Part shown: positions 1 to 64,000 of the stretch, piece by piece
How the letters are laid out: the number at the start of each line of letters is the position of its first letter
Position numbering within the stretch: the stretch's first letter is position 1
Assembly: GCA_016926555.1 (NCBI GenBank)
Contig: JAFGOI010000004.1
Coordinates: forward strand, 776-64,775
Source: Patescibacteria group bacterium
GTDB lineage: Bacteria; Patescibacteriota; WWE3; UBA101185; UBA10185
Length of the DNA stretch: 64,000 bases
Direction: 5' to 3'
The notes under the pieces: model-generated
Told to the model about the DNA's origin: nothing
Database searches by the model: none
What the model saw: the letters and a program-made list of their open reading frames with translations, nothing else
Program-made: the position numbers and the translations under genes

Positions 1-724
1 GTTAGTGGTACGCCTTTTGGAATAAACCTCCTTATATCCTTAATCATCCTCTCGACACTACCTTTCTCCCAGCTAGAGTACGCATGACAAAAGTATGTTT
101 TTACATCCAAGTCATTTGCTATTTCCTCATGACAATAGTTCTCTTTACCATTGTCCATTGTTATTGTACGTAGAATGCCTCCCGGTAAGGTTCCCAACCT
201 AGTTACCACTGCCTTTGCCTTAGCATTTTTGGTCTGATTTTTCATCTCAGTTAGTACTGTGTAACGGTAAGACCTTTCCACACTCACAGACAGGGCAGGT
301 TTGGAGCTTTTCCATTGTTCCTAACTTTTCTACCCTTTTTAATCATTCTTTTTTTCCTGCCCGAGGGTAGATATTGCCATAGTTTGTATCTTTTAGCTTT
401 CTTGGAATAAATGTATTGGTATATACATTCCGGTGTGATTGTTAGTTTACTCTTACTTTCACGTTTCAATCTTCCAGAGATCACTTCCGGTGACCAGTAA
501 TAAGGATGTCTCAGGTGCTCTCTAACATACAGAAATATCTCTGGGGACTTCAGGGGGGCCTTATATCGCTGTTTACGTGTTATACGCTCATATCTAGCAT
601 GTGCATGGCAGGGAATATAGTTCTTGCCATATTTAGTGTTACGCGCTGTCTCTCTTGAGATTGTGCTTTGGTTTCTATTTAGTTTTCTAGCTATGTCTTG
701 ATGAGATATGCCTTTTTCCAGCAT
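1..724 (-). pseudogene. IS30-family transposase, apparently frameshifted. The N-terminal HTH ORF is 284..724. The DDE-domain segment (TITMDNGKENY...YFCHAYSSWEKGSVERMIKDIRRFIPKGVPL) continues in a different frame from ~283 to the window edge.
   Basis: The ORF 284..724 encodes an HTH-type N-terminus (HQDIARKLNRNQSTISRE). Reverse-complement translation of 1..283 in another frame gives IS30 catalytic-core motifs (DNGKE, YFCHAYSSWEKGSVE, RFIPKG). The gene runs off the left edge of the window. Confidence 0.55.
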
Positions 725-2930: not shown

Positions 2931-4200
2931 GATAGTTTTTTTGGTTATTACTTAATTCTGTAAGTTTGTCTTTTAGCTCAGGAAAATTCATTAAAGCGAT
3001 TTCATCATCCACTTCTGGAGGCAAGGAATAAATATTACCGGCTTCTAGTTTCCAACCTTTGGAAAGTTTAATATGAGCCAAGATATGGAGTGCAAATGTA
3101 ATACCTAAAACACGTGGCGGATTTCCCCCTATACGCATATTTAAGAGGTACCCATCACACAAAGAATCTATAAACCAATCGCCTTTTTTATATCGCACAA
3201 GGTTTTCGTTTATTACAACCTTTTCAACACCATCTATAGTTACAAGTTGCTGCGCATCATACTCTAAGTTCTCACCCATATTACATAGTGTAGCGCCCGA
3301 TTTCATTTTAAGAATCTGATCTAAGTTAAAGACATGAGGGGTTGTTGCTGCAGTGATAAAGATATCCATATCACTCAAACAGTCATTAACATTAACAACG
3401 GTTGTACCTTCCATTAATGCATGTGCAGCGCGAACCGGGGAAACTTCACTAACATATACATCAGCACCGCAAATCTTTAGCATATCCACAACGCCTTTAC
3501 CCACACGTCCATACCCGGAAACTAAAACCTTTTTGCCCCCAAACATTATGTCTTTGGTTCGTTTAAATGCGTATAAAAACGACTCCTTAGAACCATAATA
3601 ATTATCAAACGCAGCTTTAAAACCGGTATTTATATCAATTATAGGAACTTTAAGTTTGCCTTGCTTCTTTAAGGTTTTTGCAAATTCCACACCACATGTC
3701 GTTTGTTCAGACACTCCCTTTAATTCCTTTGCCCATTTATATTTATTTCGATGAATTAATTGAGTCATATCACTACCATCATCAATAATCTGTGTTGGGG
3801 GAACTATATTACCCTCAGCATCTTTAAATTCCAGAGCCCATTGAATACACTTAAAAAATTCGTCTAATGTTTGGTCTCTTTTCCCAAAAACTGAGACACC
3901 CCAGCTATCAACAGCAGCAGCAACACGATCATCTACTGAAATAATGTTGTCACTACAGAGACGCACTTCGGCACCTAAGTTTATTAGCGCCCAAATCAAA
4001 TTACCCGTCTCAGGCGTGGGAATAACACAAACTGAGATTCTAGAACCTTTTAATGGTTTAGTTTCTTTGTATTTTTTAACAAGCGAAACTAATGCAGGCA
4101 TATCATCTCTCGCTATCTCAATTAGTTGCTGGCCTTCCTCCGCTAATGAAGGATCTGCTATCCAGCTCTCTGTTTTGTTATTTTGTTTATTTTTATTCAT
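2881..4200 (-). CDS. ahcY: Adenosylhomocysteinase (S-adenosyl-L-homocysteine hydrolase)
   Basis: It has the DNYYGSKES and GKKVLVSGYGRVGKG (NAD-binding) motifs. The N-terminus MNKNK...DMPALVSLVKKYKETKPLKGSRISVCVIPTPETGNL aligns with the AHCY N-terminal region. I placed the start at the ATG at 4198..4200. The longer GTG-initiated extension to 4368 has no AHCY homology. Confidence 0.85.
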   Translation of the reverse strand: MNKNKQNNKTESWIADPSLAEEGQQLIEIARDDMPALVSLVKKYKETKPLKGSRISVCVIPTPETGNLIWALINLGAEVRLCSDNIISVDDRVAAAVDSWGVSVFGKRDQTLDEFFKCIQWALEFKDAEGNIVPPTQIIDDGSDMTQLIHRNKYKWAKELKGVSEQTTCGVEFAKTLKKQGKLKVPIIDINTGFKAAFDNYYGSKESFLYAFKRTKDIMFGGKKVLVSGYGRVGKGVVDMLKICGADVYVSEVSPVRAAHALMEGTTVVNVNDCLSDMDIFITAATTPHVFNLDQILKMKSGATLCNMGENLEYDAQQLVTIDGVEKVVINENLVRYKKGDWFIDSLCDGYLLNMRIGGNPPRVLGITFALHILAHIKLSKGWKLEAGNIYSLPPEVDDEIALMNFPELKDKLTELSNNQKNYLSGDTLREIEEACGCC

Positions 4201-7334: not shown

Positions 7335-7410
7335 GGCCCCATCGTCTAGTGGCCTAGGACGTCAGGTTCTCATCCTGGAAACCGGGGTTCGATTCCCCGT
7401 GGGGTCACCA
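7335..7410 (+). tRNA. tRNA-Glu (anticodon CUC)
   Basis: A 76-nt cloverleaf. The 7-bp acceptor stem is GGCCCCA/UGGGGUC and the D arm is GUCU/GGAC. The anticodon stem UCAGG/CCUGG carries the loop UUCUCAU. The T arm is GGGGU-UCGAUUC-CCCCG, followed by an encoded CCA. Confidence 0.8.
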
Positions 7411-7579: not shown

Positions 7580-7600
7580 CGATTCCCCGTGGGGTCACCA
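7580..7600 (+). repeat. 21-nt direct duplicate of the tRNA-Glu 3' end (CGATTCCCCGTGGGGTCACCA), att-like
   Basis: An exact copy of tRNA positions 56-76 lies 169 bp downstream of the intact tRNA. Confidence 0.7.
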
Positions 7601-16202: not shown

Positions 16203-17123
16203 ATGGATCGTTTGTCTACAAAATTAAATACAGTGTGCAATTATTGTGGAAGTGGTGTCTATACTCCTGTAATAACGTCGAAGGATCCGTCTTTTCACGC
16301 CGAAGGAAATTGGACTTATGTCAAGTGTTCTAAATGCGGCTTGATTTACTTGAATCCCCAGCCTGATCAGGACAGTATAACTAGGCACTATGGGAATATA
16401 AGAAGAGAATATCTAAATAAGTTTGGGCTTAATTTGATCTTTTTTCTTAAACGTGTTCAGGTAAGGTTTTCTAAACGTATTCCATTAATGCGAGGTGGGA
16501 ATTTATTGGATGTAGGTTGCGGAGAAGACCCATTTTTGGAGGTACAAAAGAAGAGAGGTTACAACGTTTATGGAACCGATGTAGATAAAACTGCTCGTGA
16601 GCATTTTAAAAAACTAGGTATCGAAGTGAGAATCGGAAATTTGCAGAATGTTAAATGGTCGAAAAATTTCTTTGATGTTATTACTTTATGGCACACCCTT
16701 GAACATGATGTAAAGCCTCAAGAAACTCTTAAAGAATGTTATAAAATTCTTAAAGATAGCGGCACTTTAATTATTAGTGTGCCCAATTTTAATAGTCTAG
16801 AGCGAAAAATATTTAATGAACATTGGATCTATTTATCTCCTCCCAGGCATATTTTTCAGTTTACACCTGAATCTTTATCCAAGGTTTTGGCAGACGTCGG
16901 CTTTAGAGTATACAAAGTTAAGTATCCCGGTTTTAGTCCTCAGTTGTGGGCCAGAAGTTTTCTCGTGTTTTTGGAGGAGAGAAAATTGATAAAGCTGAAT
17001 TCTATAAGCAGAATATTTCTAACGTTAGTGTTGTTTCCGTTTGTTATACCGCTAAATCTAGTATCTACGCTGTTGAAAACGGGAAGTGTGCTAGATGTGT
17101 ACGCTGAAAAAAAGACCCCATAA
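16203..17123 (+). CDS. Class I SAM-dependent methyltransferase with an N-terminal zinc ribbon
   Basis: The N-terminus carries CNYCGS...CSKCG. The methyltransferase domain carries LLDVGCGEDP and LKDSGTLIISVPN. Confidence 0.6.
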   Translation: MDRLSTKLNTVCNYCGSGVYTPVITSKDPSFHAEGNWTYVKCSKCGLIYLNPQPDQDSITRHYGNIRREYLNKFGLNLIFFLKRVQVRFSKRIPLMRGGNLLDVGCGEDPFLEVQKKRGYNVYGTDVDKTAREHFKKLGIEVRIGNLQNVKWSKNFFDVITLWHTLEHDVKPQETLKECYKILKDSGTLIISVPNFNSLERKIFNEHWIYLSPPRHIFQFTPESLSKVLADVGFRVYKVKYPGFSPQLWARSFLVFLEERKLIKLNSISRIFLTLVLFPFVIPLNLVSTLLKTGSVLDVYAEKKTP

Positions 17124-54681: not shown

Positions 54682-55134
54682 TCTATTTAGCTAGGTTCTG
54701 AACAGGCTACAGACGCTAAAGGCTTGGGTCCAGGTACTAATCGGAATTTACAGCGCGACCTATAGTATTGACTTCTCGGATAATTTATACTATAATTAAC
54801 GTTGCAATGTTAGTATAAGGAACATTCTAGAGTTCAAGTTTGAAATGACACACCCAGTGAAATATTATGGTGGTAATGAAAAACCATGCACATTTAACAA
54901 TATATTATGACAGAGAGATACATAATCAAGGTACCGGGAAATAAGTAATAAAAAACAAACTTTGTTATTTATTTTCCGGCATCTTAGAGATATAGACCTT
55001 ATTTTTCCATGGAGGTGGAAATAATAAGAGCGGGTTAGTTACACCGCGCTTCTCTAGGAGAAACCTTGTTGTGTGTAGTTTAGCCGGAAATACACGATAT
55101 TACATTACGTTACGATCAGAAAAAAAGGAGTACA

Positions 55135-55875
55135 ATGAGAGCGAAAATCGTTGTTGTGTTGGTTTTGTTGTCCCTGGTCACCATTCCCGTCCTTGCGGAT
55201 CCTCCCGCGTCTAGCGGAATCCTGCCGAGGCAGGAGGATGTCCCGGGCTTTTGCGAGCACGGGGCAGTGGTTGGGAGGGAGGGGACCCTCGTGTACCGAG
55301 GACCGGGTACCTATTATGGTACCTGGGGCACTTTGCCCGCAGGGGCGGTGGGGATTGTCGACACCGACGGGGATTGGTACCGCATCTCGTACGACTATGA
55401 GATGTGGGTTCCGGGATACGCTGTCGTATCCCACAGCGGGTGTAACATTCCCCCGGAGTATGGGTTTGGTTACCCCCACCCGGTTTCGCTTCCAGCTCCT
55501 CTGCAAGGAGCAGAATGGAAAAGGATCTGGGAGCTTCTCCCCGAGAACTACTGGCAAGAAGGAATGCCGATAAGTTTTCGGGTGAGCGTTGCCGGGGAGG
55601 ATGGGGAGACCATTATGGAGTATAGCGGAGGATTTTCTCCTAACTCACTGGTGCCCGTCCCCAGCAGTGTTCGCGGTTATGTGGTGCGGATAACCGCCGC
55701 AGTTAACTTTCCTCCCCCAGGGGAGGCTCGGGTTTACTGGACCAACCAGGTCGAATGGGCGGTCTTAGACCCCGAAGCCGGTTGGATCAACCTCCCGCTA
55801 GAAAGCCAAGATAGGCTCTCTTTGGCGGGGGAGGATCAGGATTGGACGGACGGGGTCTACTGGTGGAGGTGGTAA
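55135..55875 (+). CDS. Secreted SH3b-domain protein encoded by a GC-rich, compositionally foreign ORF
   Basis: An SD aaaggag precedes the ATG. A signal peptide MRAKIVVVLVLLSLVTIPVLA and an SH3b-like segment GTLVYRGPGTYYGTWGTLPAGAVGIVDTDGDWYRISY follow. Third codon positions are mostly G/C, unlike every other gene in the window. Confidence 0.55.
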   Translation: MRAKIVVVLVLLSLVTIPVLADPPASSGILPRQEDVPGFCEHGAVVGREGTLVYRGPGTYYGTWGTLPAGAVGIVDTDGDWYRISYDYEMWVPGYAVVSHSGCNIPPEYGFGYPHPVSLPAPLQGAEWKRIWELLPENYWQEGMPISFRVSVAGEDGETIMEYSGGFSPNSLVPVPSSVRGYVVRITAAVNFPPPGEARVYWTNQVEWAVLDPEAGWINLPLESQDRLSLAGEDQDWTDGVYWWRW

Positions 55876-55900
55876 GCCACAAAGCTAGATAGACCCCCAT

Positions 55901-55970
55901 GAGCTACGGTTCCCTGTTCTTAAGTGTAAACACAATTGGTGACTCACACACTGAACAGGAACCGTAGCTC
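55901..55970 (+). terminator. Long inverted repeat (18-bp stem, 34-nt loop) immediately downstream of the GC-rich gene. Possibly a terminator.
   Basis: GAGCTACGGTTCC(C)TGTTC ... GAACAGGAACCGTAGCTC followed by TTTACGTTTTTC. Confidence 0.4.
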
Positions 55971-56036
55971 TTTACGTTTTTCAATACCTTTTTATTCAAA
56001 TGGATATCACATAAATCACGTGTTAATATATTATCG

Positions 56037-62207: not shown

Positions 62208-62333
62208 ATATGTATAGAATATCAGAATATTAGAGTTAGAGGAATTTGGTTGTCTTACTTGTATAGATGAGAAAGTTAATTGAGGGGCGAATTGGGAATA
62301 TTACGAGGATATTTATACGAATTATACTATAAG

Positions 62334-62362
62334 TTGATTATGGGACCAATATAGTCTATAAT
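62334..62362 (+). promoter_or_regulatory. Sigma70-type promoter TTGATT-17-TATAAT
   Basis: The -35 element TTGATT lies at 62334..62339. A 17-nt spacer follows, then the -10 element TATAAT at 62357..62362, 48 nt upstream of the ATG at 62410. Confidence 0.5.
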
Positions 62363-62409
62363 GTTATGAGTTCAAGTTTGAATATCGCTTAAAAAAAGGA
62401 GGCATTACA

Positions 62410-62565
62410 ATGCGTAGAATGCGTAGAATGCTGAGGTTCTGTTTAGGACTTGCAGGTCCAGTTTTAATCATGGTCGGGGGACTTTGGTGTTTTTTCCTGT
62501 GTCCCTATCCAGCGTTTGTGGTTGTGGGGGGAGTAGCTCTCGTGCTACTCTACCGCAAGCTCTAA
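62410..62565 (+). CDS. Unannotated 51-aa two-TM membrane protein (MRRMRRMLRFCLGLAGPVLIMVGGLWCFFLCPYPAFVVVGGVALVLLYRKL)
   Basis: A strong SD AAAGGAGG lies 7 nt upstream of the ATG, with a consensus promoter further upstream. It is below the 60-aa cutoff of the ORF track. It is followed by a hairpin at 62571..62631. Confidence 0.45.
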   Translation: MRRMRRMLRFCLGLAGPVLIMVGGLWCFFLCPYPAFVVVGGVALVLLYRKL

Positions 62566-62570
62566 CCCAC

Positions 62571-62631
62571 CTGAAGCCGAGGGGAAATGTTTATCACACA
62601 TATACTATGAACATTCCTCTCGGCTTCCGGC
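62571..62631. terminator. Hairpin between convergent genes (GAAGCCGAGGGG ... CCTCTCGGCTTC), candidate bidirectional terminator
   Basis: An 11/12-bp stem with a ~37-nt loop. It is located between the 3' ends of the small ORF (+) and the TasA-like gene (-). Confidence 0.35.
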
Positions 62632-63926: not shown

Positions 63927-64000
63927 AACAAAATTAGAGACACCCGCAATATAGGTTATTGCAATATATATTGCAATATGGTAGCTTCTAAGTTATTAAG

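What the first reader, a model, noticed from the sequence alone, without database searches (positions are those of the whole stretch)
54781..54844. ~65-nt promoter/leader module shared by the GC-rich SH3b gene and the small membrane ORF at 62410
Two intergenic regions 7.5 kb apart carry the same architecture. Upstream of the GC-rich gene the sequence is AATTTATACTATAATTAACG...TATAAG-(10 nt)-GAGTTCAAGTTTGAA (54783..54844). Upstream of the small ORF it is AATTATACTATAAGTTGATT...TATAAT-(5 nt)-GAGTTCAAGTTTGAA (62321..62382). The 15-mer GAGTTCAAGTTTGAA is an exact repeat placed just downstream of a -10 hexamer in both cases. The AATT[T]ATACTATAA box precedes the -35 region in both. An exact 15-mer in two promoter-proximal positions is unlikely by chance in 64 kb. 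This suggests co-regulation by a common operator or leader, or a duplicated promoter cassette that came with a mobile or acquired gene. In copy A the 15-mer is followed directly by ATG, opening a 21-codon ORF (MTHPVKYYGGNEKPCTFNNIL) with no SD, and ~300 nt of leader before the real gene. That leader could hold a cis-regulatory RNA.
Basis: seen in the sequence. Interest (0 to 1): 0.65.

Follow-up and report, generated by a model that had tools for sequence, protein, structure and literature searches.

The report
Shared promoter-operator module on two inserted genes
Two short palindromic DNA boxes at a fixed spacing sit in the promoters of two small, compositionally foreign genes inserted into a Patescibacteria (WWE3-like) genome, and most likely wire both genes to one regulator; one gene also has a conserved, folded RNA leader matching no known RNA family.

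Summary
The repeat is real. GAGTTCAAGTTTGAA and TTATACTATAA each occur exactly twice, collinear, 45 and 46 nt apart. The 34/35 nt between them is no more alike than shuffled sequence. A 15-mer repeat alone is not rare here; the joint pattern is. Both boxes have palindromic arms.

In copy A the box supplies the -10 of TTGACT-17-TATAAT. In copy B it lies just upstream of the -35 of TTGATT-17-TATAAT.

Six relatives (DNA read for five) have RNase J next to FtsK. Copy A therefore heads a 1.35-kb inserted unit of promoter, 290-nt leader, GC-rich secreted SH3b gene and terminator hairpin. Copy B lies in a variable gap.

The SH3b protein has one homologue in about 15 billion proteins, on contig L004. 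That gene is also GC-rich in AT-rich DNA. It shares the element CCTATAGTATTGAC and a structured leader with copy A. The same promoter element occurs in relative L015 at copy B's position.

Best reading: operator sites for an unknown dimeric regulator, placed on two acquired cassettes. Transcription starts and the regulator are untested.

The parts
54682..56036 (+). Cassette A: a lineage-specific insertion between RNase J and FtsK, made of promoter, leader, GC-rich gene and terminator.
   Evidence: Relatives have RNase J and FtsK 19-272 nt apart and no gene between them. This is the only stretch of the window where a 300-nt window reaches 50% GC.
54757..54772 (+). GACCTATAGTATTGAC, a conserved upstream element plus the -35 TTGAC.
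   Evidence: The identical 16-mer occurs in L015 at 16947-16962, and the 14-mer in L004 at 2063-2076. It is unique in the window.
54768..54796 (+). Promoter P1 of copy A, TTGACT-17-TATAAT (11 of 12 consensus positions).
54776..54844 (+). Module copy A: box block, 34-nt non-conserved spacer, then the 15-mer.
54785..54795 (.). Box copy A, TTATAcTATAA. The arms form a 5+1+5 palindrome, and the box contains the P1 -10 TATAAT (54791-54796).
54830..54844 (.). 15-mer copy A. GAG is followed by TTCAA-gt-TTGAA, a 5+2+5 dyad at 54833-54844.
54926..54988 (+). Leader hairpin P0, a near-perfect stem of about 25 bp. Its 3' strand is the conserved TTCCGGCATCTTAGAGATAT.
   Evidence: z-score -8.5 here and -6.25 in L004. 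All 22 aligned pairs are paired in both sequences and 6 carry compensatory changes. Slid controls pair at 39-57%. Six pair positions show a G-U wobble in one or both sequences, which favours the + strand RNA.
54982..55059 (+). Leader three-way junction. P1 pairs 54982-54990 with 55051-55059. Hairpin P2 (54998-55028) has GGAGG in its apical loop. Hairpin P3 is at 55030-55047.
   Evidence: Independent minimum-energy folds of the window and L004 segments give the same topology. In P1, 9 bp are kept with 1 compensatory and 2 one-sided changes and none broken.
55135..55875 (+). GC-rich gene for a 246-aa protein with a signal peptide and a weak SH3b-like domain.
   Evidence: GC3 is 0.652, against a mean of 0.347 (sd 0.056) over all 52 genes of the window; the next highest is 0.408. 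The SH3_3 match is weak. Only one full-length homologue, P0002, was found.
55901..55970 (+). Long-stem hairpin followed by TTTACGTTTTTC, the probable terminator of cassette A.
   Evidence: z-score -6.3. The simple terminator scan ended at 55200 and did not cover this hairpin.
62304..62382 (+). Module copy B: box block with a 9-nt tandem duplication, 35-nt spacer holding the promoter hexamers, then the 15-mer.
62322..62332 (.). Box copy B, TTATAcTATAA, ending one base before the -35 hexamer.
62334..62362 (+). Promoter of copy B, TTGATT-17-TATAAT (10 of 12). The predicted start falls at the first bases of the 15-mer.
   Evidence: The start position is inferred from the -10 spacing.
62368..62382 (.). 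15-mer copy B.
62410..62565 (+). Small ORF of 51 aa with two hydrophobic segments. It has a strong ribosome-binding site (AAGGAGG) and moderately raised GC.
   Evidence: It was not called as a gene in the Logan assembly. No homologue was found in relatives.
62573..62627 (+). Long-stem hairpin after the small ORF, lying between convergent genes.
   Evidence: z-score -5.7.

Best explanation
The roughly 67-nt module is a regulatory region made of two dyad-symmetric protein-binding boxes, TTATAcTATAA and (GAG)TTCAAgtTTGAA. The boxes are held 34-35 nt apart and laid over sigma-70-type promoters. They head two self-contained accessory transcription units (promoter, gene, terminator hairpin) that were added to a conserved housekeeping gene cluster of a WWE3-like Patescibacteria genome.

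One or two unknown dimeric DNA-binding proteins are proposed to bind the boxes. In copy B the boxes flank the promoter, at about -42 and at +1 to +15. In copy A the box overlaps the -10 of the main promoter and the 15-mer lies in the early transcribed region. In this way a secreted SH3b-like protein and a small two-helix membrane protein would be co-regulated.

In copy A the module sits inside an older, portable cassette promoter (GACCTATAGTATTGAC). That promoter, plus a structured leader of about 130-170 nt (a long hairpin and a three-way junction), is shared with the only homologous gene known. The leader adds a second, RNA-level control of unknown signal.

Shown: the repeats, their symmetry, the randomised spacer, the insertion, the promoter-consensus matches and the conserved folds.

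Inferred: protein binding, the transcription start sites, co-regulation and any switching by the leader.
For: - The exact 11-mer and 15-mer are collinear at offsets of 45 and 46 nt.
- The spacer between them is no more similar than shuffles, yet its length is kept at 34 against 35 nt. That implies selection on the blocks rather than a recent copy.
- Both blocks have palindromic arms. TTCAANNTTGAA has no other perfect copy in the window or in the 8.4 kb beyond it.
- Strong promoter matches overlap or adjoin the boxes.
- Both downstream genes are the compositional outliers of the window.
- Cassette A is absent from six relatives with conserved synteny, and copy B lies in a variable gap.
- The promoter element is conserved in L004 and L015.
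- Hairpin P0 keeps 22 of 22 pairs with 6 compensatory changes. The three-way junction is recovered independently in both sequences.
Against: - There are only two copies, in one genome. No third site was found in 72 kb, and none in relatives, L004, viral contigs or species-representative genomes.
- No cognate regulator is identified. The nearby Xre-type gene is conserved in relatives that lack the module, and it has its own different palindrome at 63957-63978.
- The boxes occupy different positions relative to the best promoter in A and in B.
- The centre-to-centre spacing of about 49 bp is not a whole number of helical turns.
- The conserved GAG to the left of the dyad is asymmetric.
- AT-rich palindromes also resemble -10 elements.
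- No expression or transcription-start data exist.
Confidence: 0.45

Rival explanations
1. This is a portable promoter of common descent with no dedicated regulator. The two blocks are the surviving core parts of one duplicated promoter: an AT-rich -10 or UP-like element and the start or initially transcribed region. They are kept because they are the promoter, not because a regulator binds them.
For: - The box contains TATAAT in A and TATAAG in B.
- The 15-mer begins at the predicted start in B.
- A related cassette promoter, GACCTATAGTATTGAC, recurs in three genomes at the edge of inserted or variable DNA. B's ACTATAAG-TTGATT looks like a degenerate version of it.
Against: - The true promoter hexamers of B (TTGATT, TATAAT) lie in the spacer, which is not conserved in A.
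- The box plays different promoter roles in A and B.
- Dyad symmetry of both blocks is not expected for core promoter elements.
- L004 and L015 have the cassette promoter without either box.
Confidence: 0.25
2. The element acts at the RNA level. GAGUUCAAGUUUGAA is the common 5' end of both mRNAs and serves as a binding site for an sRNA, a protein or a ribonuclease.
For: - The 15-mer lies at or just after the predicted start sites.
- The conserved GAG extends the block asymmetrically, which suits a strand-specific signal.
- Both copies are on the coding strand.
Against: - The dyad cannot form a stable RNA hairpin: 5 bp with a 2-nt loop.
- With the strong promoter P1 of copy A, the 15-mer is internal, at about +27 to +41.
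- This reading does not explain the conserved upstream box at a fixed distance.
Confidence: 0.12
3. The boxes are recombination or attachment sites left by the mechanism that inserted the two cassettes, for example an integron-like or Xer-like site next to a promoter.
For: - Both copies lie at the upstream edge of extra, compositionally foreign DNA, and each gene is followed by a long hairpin.
- An IS30-family transposase fragment shows that mobile DNA is present in the genome.
Against: - The flanks were compared and showed no terminal inverted repeats or target duplications at the cassette borders. No recombinase gene lies in the annotated neighbourhood of either copy, but no systematic search for one was run.
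- By eye, the hairpins and the 15-mer lack the integron core sites (RYYYAAC and GTTRRRY), and the box does not match a dif layout.
- In copy A the module lies inside the cassette, downstream of the conserved cassette promoter, not at its border.
- L004 and L015 cassettes lack the boxes.
Confidence: 0.06
4. The resemblance is a chance match of AT-rich promoter sequences.
For: 15-mer repeats arise by chance in this window and in shuffled intergenic DNA. The boxes are AT-rich and -10-like.
Against: - A second exact 11-mer sits at the same offset to within 1 nt, with further upstream matches.
- Both copies are on the same strand, and both lie before the two most GC-rich ORFs of the window.
- My joint estimate is about 2e-4.
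Confidence: 0.05

Closest known systems
Palindromic repressor operators overlapping promoters (for example LexA/SOS boxes, Cro/CI and Xre-type operators, the CtsR box of clp genes)
   Same: Short dyad-symmetric sites of 11-12 bp lie at or next to the -10, -35 or +1 positions. They are repeated in front of several genes of one genome, with non-conserved DNA between the sites.
   Different: From memory, the sequences match none of the operator consensus sequences I compared (LexA, CtsR, CIRCE, CodY, Fur, Rex, NrdR, CRP/FNR). No regulator is identified. Only two target promoters are seen. Two different dyads are used at a fixed 34-35 nt spacing.
Phage 'morons' (autonomous promoter-gene-terminator units of deviant base composition inserted between conserved genes; described for lambdoid phages, cited from memory)
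   Same: Cassette A has its own strong promoter, one gene, its own terminator hairpin and strongly deviant GC. It lies between two genes that are adjacent in all relatives.
   Different: The host is a bacterial chromosome region of housekeeping genes, not a prophage. There is no match in phage, plasmid or viral collections. The unit also carries a long, conserved, structured leader.
Structured cis-regulatory 5' leaders (riboswitches and protein-binding leaders, as catalogued in Rfam)
   Same: A leader of about 300 nt has a conserved long hairpin, a three-way junction and compensatory base changes. One conserved segment (CAUCUURGAGAU) can pair in two mutually exclusive ways.
   Different: No Rfam family matches, even at permissive thresholds. 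Only two examples are known. No ligand, terminator or SD-sequestering platform could be assigned.
Integron gene cassettes with attC hairpins
   Same: Short single-gene units are associated with long imperfect hairpins and sit next to a promoter-bearing module.
   Different: No integrase was seen. By inspection there are no R''/R' core sites. The hairpins are unlike each other, and each unit has its own promoter.

Membership tests
Sigma-70-type bacterial promoter | -35 and -10 hexamers close to TTGACA and TATAAT, separated by 16-18 nt. | tested here: met
   A has TTGACT-17-TATAAT (11 of 12) and B has TTGATT-17-TATAAT (10 of 12). These are consensus matches only.
Sigma-70-type bacterial promoter | An experimentally mapped transcription start 6-8 nt downstream of the -10. 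| not testable with these tools
   No transcriptome or 5'-end data are available for this organism.
Dimeric-repressor operator (regulon site) | Dyad symmetry of the site. | tested here: met
   The reverse complements of TTATAcTATAA and TTCAAgtTTGAA keep both 5-nt arms.
Dimeric-repressor operator (regulon site) | The same site recurs at promoters of several genes of the genome and not elsewhere. | tested here: inconclusive
   Two perfect copies, both promoter-proximal, and no others in 72 kb. The rest of the 288-kb contig and genome could not be read.
Dimeric-repressor operator (regulon site) | An identified cognate DNA-binding protein. | not testable with these tools
   The only nearby helix-turn-helix gene is the Xre type just past the window end. 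It is conserved in relatives without the module and has its own palindrome.
Any Rfam RNA family (riboswitch, T-box, ribozyme, large ncRNA) | A covariance-model score at or near the family threshold. | tested here: not met
   No relevant hit at gathering thresholds or at E-values up to 5 in the leader. The same holds for L004, L015 and region B.
Conserved structured cis-regulatory leader (generic) | Helices kept through compensatory changes in homologous loci. | tested here: met
   P0 has 22 of 22 pairs and 6 compensatory changes, with slid controls at 39-57%. The junction helix P1 has 9 bp with 1 compensatory and 2 one-sided changes. Only two sequences are available, so support is limited.
Moron-like autonomous insertion cassette | Own promoter and terminator, deviant composition, and insertion between genes that are adjacent in relatives. 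| tested here: met
Moron-like autonomous insertion cassette | Location within a prophage or phage genome. | tested here: not met
   The flanks are RNase J, FtsK, PrfB and ClpB. No phage or viral match was found.
Diversity-generating retroelement target | A template repeat nearly identical to part of the gene. | tested here: not met
   Sensitive blastn of both cassettes against the window finds only the 15-mer.
Integron cassette / attC | R'' (RYYYAAC) and R' (GTTRRRY) cores on an imperfect hairpin, plus an integrase. | tested here: not met
   By inspection of the hairpin sequences no such cores are present. No integrase is evident among the genes annotated around either copy, but no integrase search was run.
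SH3b (PF08239) cell-wall-binding domain protein | A Pfam score above the gathering threshold. | tested here: not met
   14.8 bits against a cut-off of 27. Residues 45-100 do hit many SH3b-containing proteins at E-values of 1e-9 to 1e-4, so the domain is likely a distant SH3b.

The most novel reading that the evidence does not exclude
Patescibacteria may carry a family of portable, self-contained expression cassettes. Each would be marked by the promoter element GACCTATAGTATTGAC, and in some cases by a novel structured leader RNA. Their cargo genes would be kept GC-rich (GC3 about 0.65-0.68) inside AT-rich genomes over long divergence (39% protein identity). That points to selection on, or a targeted process acting on, the coding part only. 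On this reading the two palindromic boxes are how this host plugs such cassettes into one of its own regulons.
Probability: 0.15. Interest if true: 0.7.

Novelty: new member of a known kind. Interest (0 to 1): 0.45.

Why it matters
Gene regulation in Patescibacteria (CPR) is almost uncharted. These bacteria have few transcription factors and no genetics. A two-box operator shared by two envelope genes therefore gives a concrete, testable regulon seed.

The work also shows how accessory genes enter a tightly syntenic housekeeping region: as ready-made units of promoter, leader, gene and terminator. It uncovers a candidate new structured leader RNA.

Finally, it flags an unexplained composition anomaly. 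An orphan secreted-protein family keeps GC3 near 0.65 in two unrelated AT-rich contexts while its leader is AT-rich.

Tried and rejected
- Dispersed repeat: rejected. There are only two copies in 72 kb and none in relatives.
- attL/attR sites of a 7.5-kb island: rejected. FtsK, PrfB and ClpB between the copies are syntenic in all relatives.
- tRNA-like or T-box origin of the 15-mer or leader: no Rfam support.
- DGR target: no template repeat.
- Integron attC or dif site: core motifs are absent by inspection.
- Terminal inverted repeats or target duplications at the cassette borders: none above shuffles.
- The minus-strand 86-aa ORF in the L004 leader as the reason for conservation: rejected. 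There is no relic of it in the window, and the G-U wobble pairs favour the plus-strand RNA.
- The 21-codon uORF: not conserved.
- The two Xre-type proteins (the one just past the window end and the one on L004) as a shared regulator: they are only 28% identical, which is generic similarity.
- Database scans gave only chance hits or nothing. These were the box-to-15-mer pattern in species genomes and viral contigs, the leader 20-mer in metagenomes and viral contigs, and the promoter element in viral contigs.
- Phage, plasmid and viral protein or DNA searches: empty.
- AlphaFold model of the SH3b protein: too poor to use, mean pLDDT 42.
- TGTTAGTAT shared with L015, and the idea that a 20-nt box block was inserted into an ancestral promoter spacer: plausible, but 9-mers match by chance at this scale, so it stays a conjecture.
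- AGGCTACAGACG shared with L015 in permuted order: unexplained and possibly chance.
- Literature search on Patescibacteria promoters: nothing relevant.

Full report
**Observation**

The sequences are exactly as described. GAGTTCAAGTTTGAA occurs at 54830-54844 and 62368-62382, on the same strand, with no other copy at up to 2 mismatches. TTATACTATAA occurs at 54785-54795 and 62322-62332. The start-to-start offset to the 15-mer is 45 nt in A and 46 nt in B.

Similarity also extends a little upstream: CGGATAATTTATAC in A against CGAGGATATTTATAC in B. B carries an extra 9-nt tandem copy.

The 34/35 nt between the two blocks is no more similar than shuffled sequence, with a score of 11 against a shuffled mean of 13.4. 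Both blocks have palindromic arms: TTATA-c-TATAA and TTCAA-gt-TTGAA.

**Chance**

Exact 15-mer repeats are common in this window, which holds more than a dozen pairs. Markov simulations give longest repeats of 15-21 nt. Shuffled intergenic regions share a 15-mer or longer in 24 of 200 trials.

What is improbable is the second exact 11-mer at the same offset, on the same strand, in two intergenic regions. I estimate the joint probability at about 2e-4. The dyad symmetry of both blocks adds to this. Both copies also precede the two most GC-rich ORFs of the window.

**Promoter anatomy**

The two copies are not built alike.
- In A the best sigma-70 match is TTGACT-17-TATAAT at 54768-54796. The box therefore supplies the -10, and the 15-mer lies at about +27 to +41.
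- In B the best match is TTGATT-17-TATAAT at 62334-62362. The box ends one base before the -35, centred at about -42, and the 15-mer starts at the predicted +1.
- B's promoter hexamers lie in the spacer that is not conserved in A.

So the conserved blocks are not simply the promoter core. Conservation of two dyads at a fixed distance, with a free spacer between them, is what binding sites for dimeric proteins look like. That is my preferred reading. No regulator is identified and no start-site data exist.

**Genomic context**

FtsK homologues place the organism among WWE3-like Patescibacteria. NCBI names the SH3 protein's source as a Patescibacteria group bacterium.

In six relatives (FtsK 58-68% identical; gene map only for the closest) the order IF-2 ... 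PNPase ... RNase J-FtsK-PrfB-ClpB ... RadC-Xre-ribosomal proteins is kept, and RNase J and FtsK are 19-272 nt apart. Here they are 1355 nt apart. Region 54682-56036 is therefore a lineage-specific insertion. It consists of a promoter, a 290-nt leader, a 246-aa gene and a 70-nt hairpin followed by a T-rich tail.

The gap between ClpB and the 195-aa gene, which holds copy B, is 434 nt here and 201 nt in the closest relative. In other relatives it holds different extra genes, so it is a variable spot. Copy B, its 51-aa two-helix ORF (strong ribosome-binding site) and its hairpin are extra DNA too.

**Composition**

The 246-aa gene is the only stretch of the 64-kb window where a 300-nt window reaches 50% GC. 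Its GC3 is 0.652, against a window mean of 0.347 and 0.408 for the next highest gene. Ribosomal protein genes range from 0.28 to 0.41.

**The cargo and its single relative**

The protein has a signal peptide and a weak SH3b-like domain. An exhaustive HMMER search of 1.84 billion representatives found one full-length homologue, P0002, at 39% identity. A word-indexed profile search built from the two proteins found no more.

P0002 sits on a 3.3-kb JGI contig, L004, from an independent sample. That gene is also GC-rich (GC3 0.676) among AT-rich neighbours (GC3 0.34-0.36).

Its upstream region shares CCTATAGTATTGAC with copy A, here as the -35 of TTGACA-17-TATTAT. It also shares the 20-mer TTCCGGCATCTT[A/G]GAGATAT.

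**The portable promoter element**

Without being searched for, the 16-mer GACCTATAGTATTGAC also turned up in relative L015. There it lies divergent from ClpB, at the same spot as copy B, and at the edge of a block of four orphan ORFs specific to L015. It is absent from the other relatives and from the rest of the window.

At this phylogenetic distance intergenic DNA should not align. The element is therefore either strongly selected or spread horizontally with cassettes. B's ACTATAAG-TTGATT looks like a degenerate version of it, but that resemblance is weak. Neither palindromic box occurs in L004 or L015, so the boxes are specific to this genome.

**The leader**

A plain MAFFT alignment of the two leaders recovers a long hairpin, P0. 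It has 22 pairs, all paired in both sequences, 6 with changes on both sides, and none broken. Slid controls pair at 39-57%. Single-sequence z-scores are -8.5 and -6.25. Six pair positions show a G-U wobble in one or both sequences, which favours a plus-strand RNA.

Downstream, independent folds of the window and L004 segments give the same three-way junction:
- P1 is a 9-bp closing helix. The single difference in the conserved 5' strand (A to G) is matched by U to C in the partner.
- P2 is a hairpin of quite different sequence in the two loci, with GGAGG in the apical loop in both.
- P3 is a small GC hairpin.

The conserved CAUCUURGAGAU can instead extend P0, which suggests a switch. I could not assign an expression platform. 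A further hairpin, P4, is tentative.

Rfam gives nothing at any threshold. Exact-pattern scans of metagenome and viral contigs found no further copies. The 21-codon ORF after the 15-mer is not conserved.

**Mechanism proposed**

Two acquired, self-contained units encode envelope proteins. An unknown regulator (or two) recognises the two dyads and so brings both units under common control. Cassette A keeps in addition its own inherited promoter element and a structured leader that acts at the RNA level.

Shown: the repeats, the symmetry, the randomised spacer, the insertion, the compositional oddity, the conserved promoter element and the conserved folds.

Inferred: binding, start sites, co-regulation and switching.

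**Rivals**
- A duplicated portable promoter without a dedicated regulator (0.25).
- A shared 5'-UTR RNA signal (0.12).
- Recombination sites (0.06).
- Chance (0.05).

**Comparison and novelty**

The module behaves like classical palindromic operators, but from memory it matches no consensus I compared. Cassette A has the architecture of a phage moron but is not in a phage. The leader resembles riboswitch-type leaders but belongs to no Rfam family. DGR and integron readings fail their defining tests (and inspection of the sequences).

I rate it a new member of known kinds and of moderate interest. One real puzzle remains: an orphan gene family that stays GC-rich behind an AT-rich leader in two AT-rich genomes.

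Noticed in passing
window 55135-55875; L004 2548-3261: The SH3b-like gene and its only known homologue (39% identity, independent sample) both have GC3 of about 0.65-0.68 in genomes with GC3 of about 0.35, while the shared leader is AT-rich. Simple recent transfer does not explain GC-richness that persists at this divergence.
   Followed up: partly
window 7390-7410 and 7580-7600: The last 21 nt of the tRNA gene at 7335-7407 (CGATTCCCCGTGGGGTCACCA) are repeated exactly 190 nt downstream. This looks like a leftover attachment-site duplication from an element integrated in the tRNA gene.
   Followed up: no
window 284-724 (- strand): This ORF matches the N-terminal 110 positions of the IS30-family transposase model, below the cut-off. 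It is a truncated or degraded IS30-like transposase at the left edge of the window.
   Followed up: partly
window 63957-63978: A perfect 22-nt palindrome, TATTGCAATATATATTGCAATA, lies between the divergent RadC gene and an Xre-type HTH gene that starts just past the window end (about 64004). It is a likely auto-operator. Module A contains a related imperfect dyad, AACgTTGCAAtGTT, at 54798-54811, which may be chance.
   Followed up: partly
window 54704-54715; L015 17018-17029: AGGCTACAGACG, followed by TAAAGG, is shared with relative L015. It lies upstream of the conserved promoter element here and downstream of it in L015, a permuted order. This is unexplained and may be chance.
   Followed up: partly
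L015 16899-19280: At the position equivalent to copy B, relative L015 has about 2.3 kb of extra DNA with four orphan small ORFs in alternating orientation. The block begins with the same GACCTATAGTATTGAC promoter element. The ClpB-RadC gap is an insertion hot spot in this lineage.
   Followed up: partly
window 62410-62430 and 62313-62327: There are two small tandem duplications in region B. ATGCGTAGA occurs twice at the start of the small ORF, giving MRRMRRM. TTATAC recurs 9 nt apart just upstream of and within the box (ATTTATAC G AATTATAC).
   Followed up: no
L003 about 3900-4060 (about 4.4 kb beyond the right end of the window): A GC-rich non-coding stretch of about 160 nt lies between the seryl-tRNA synthetase and IF-1 genes. 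It has no Rfam match and could be an unannotated structured RNA.
   Followed up: partly
L004 2039-2090: The L004 promoter carries the direct repeat AAAGAAACCCTAT twice and an inverted ACCCTAT/ATAGGGT pair around the -35. It lies directly downstream of a 71-aa Xre-type gene, which suggests that cassette has its own adjacent regulator.
   Followed up: no
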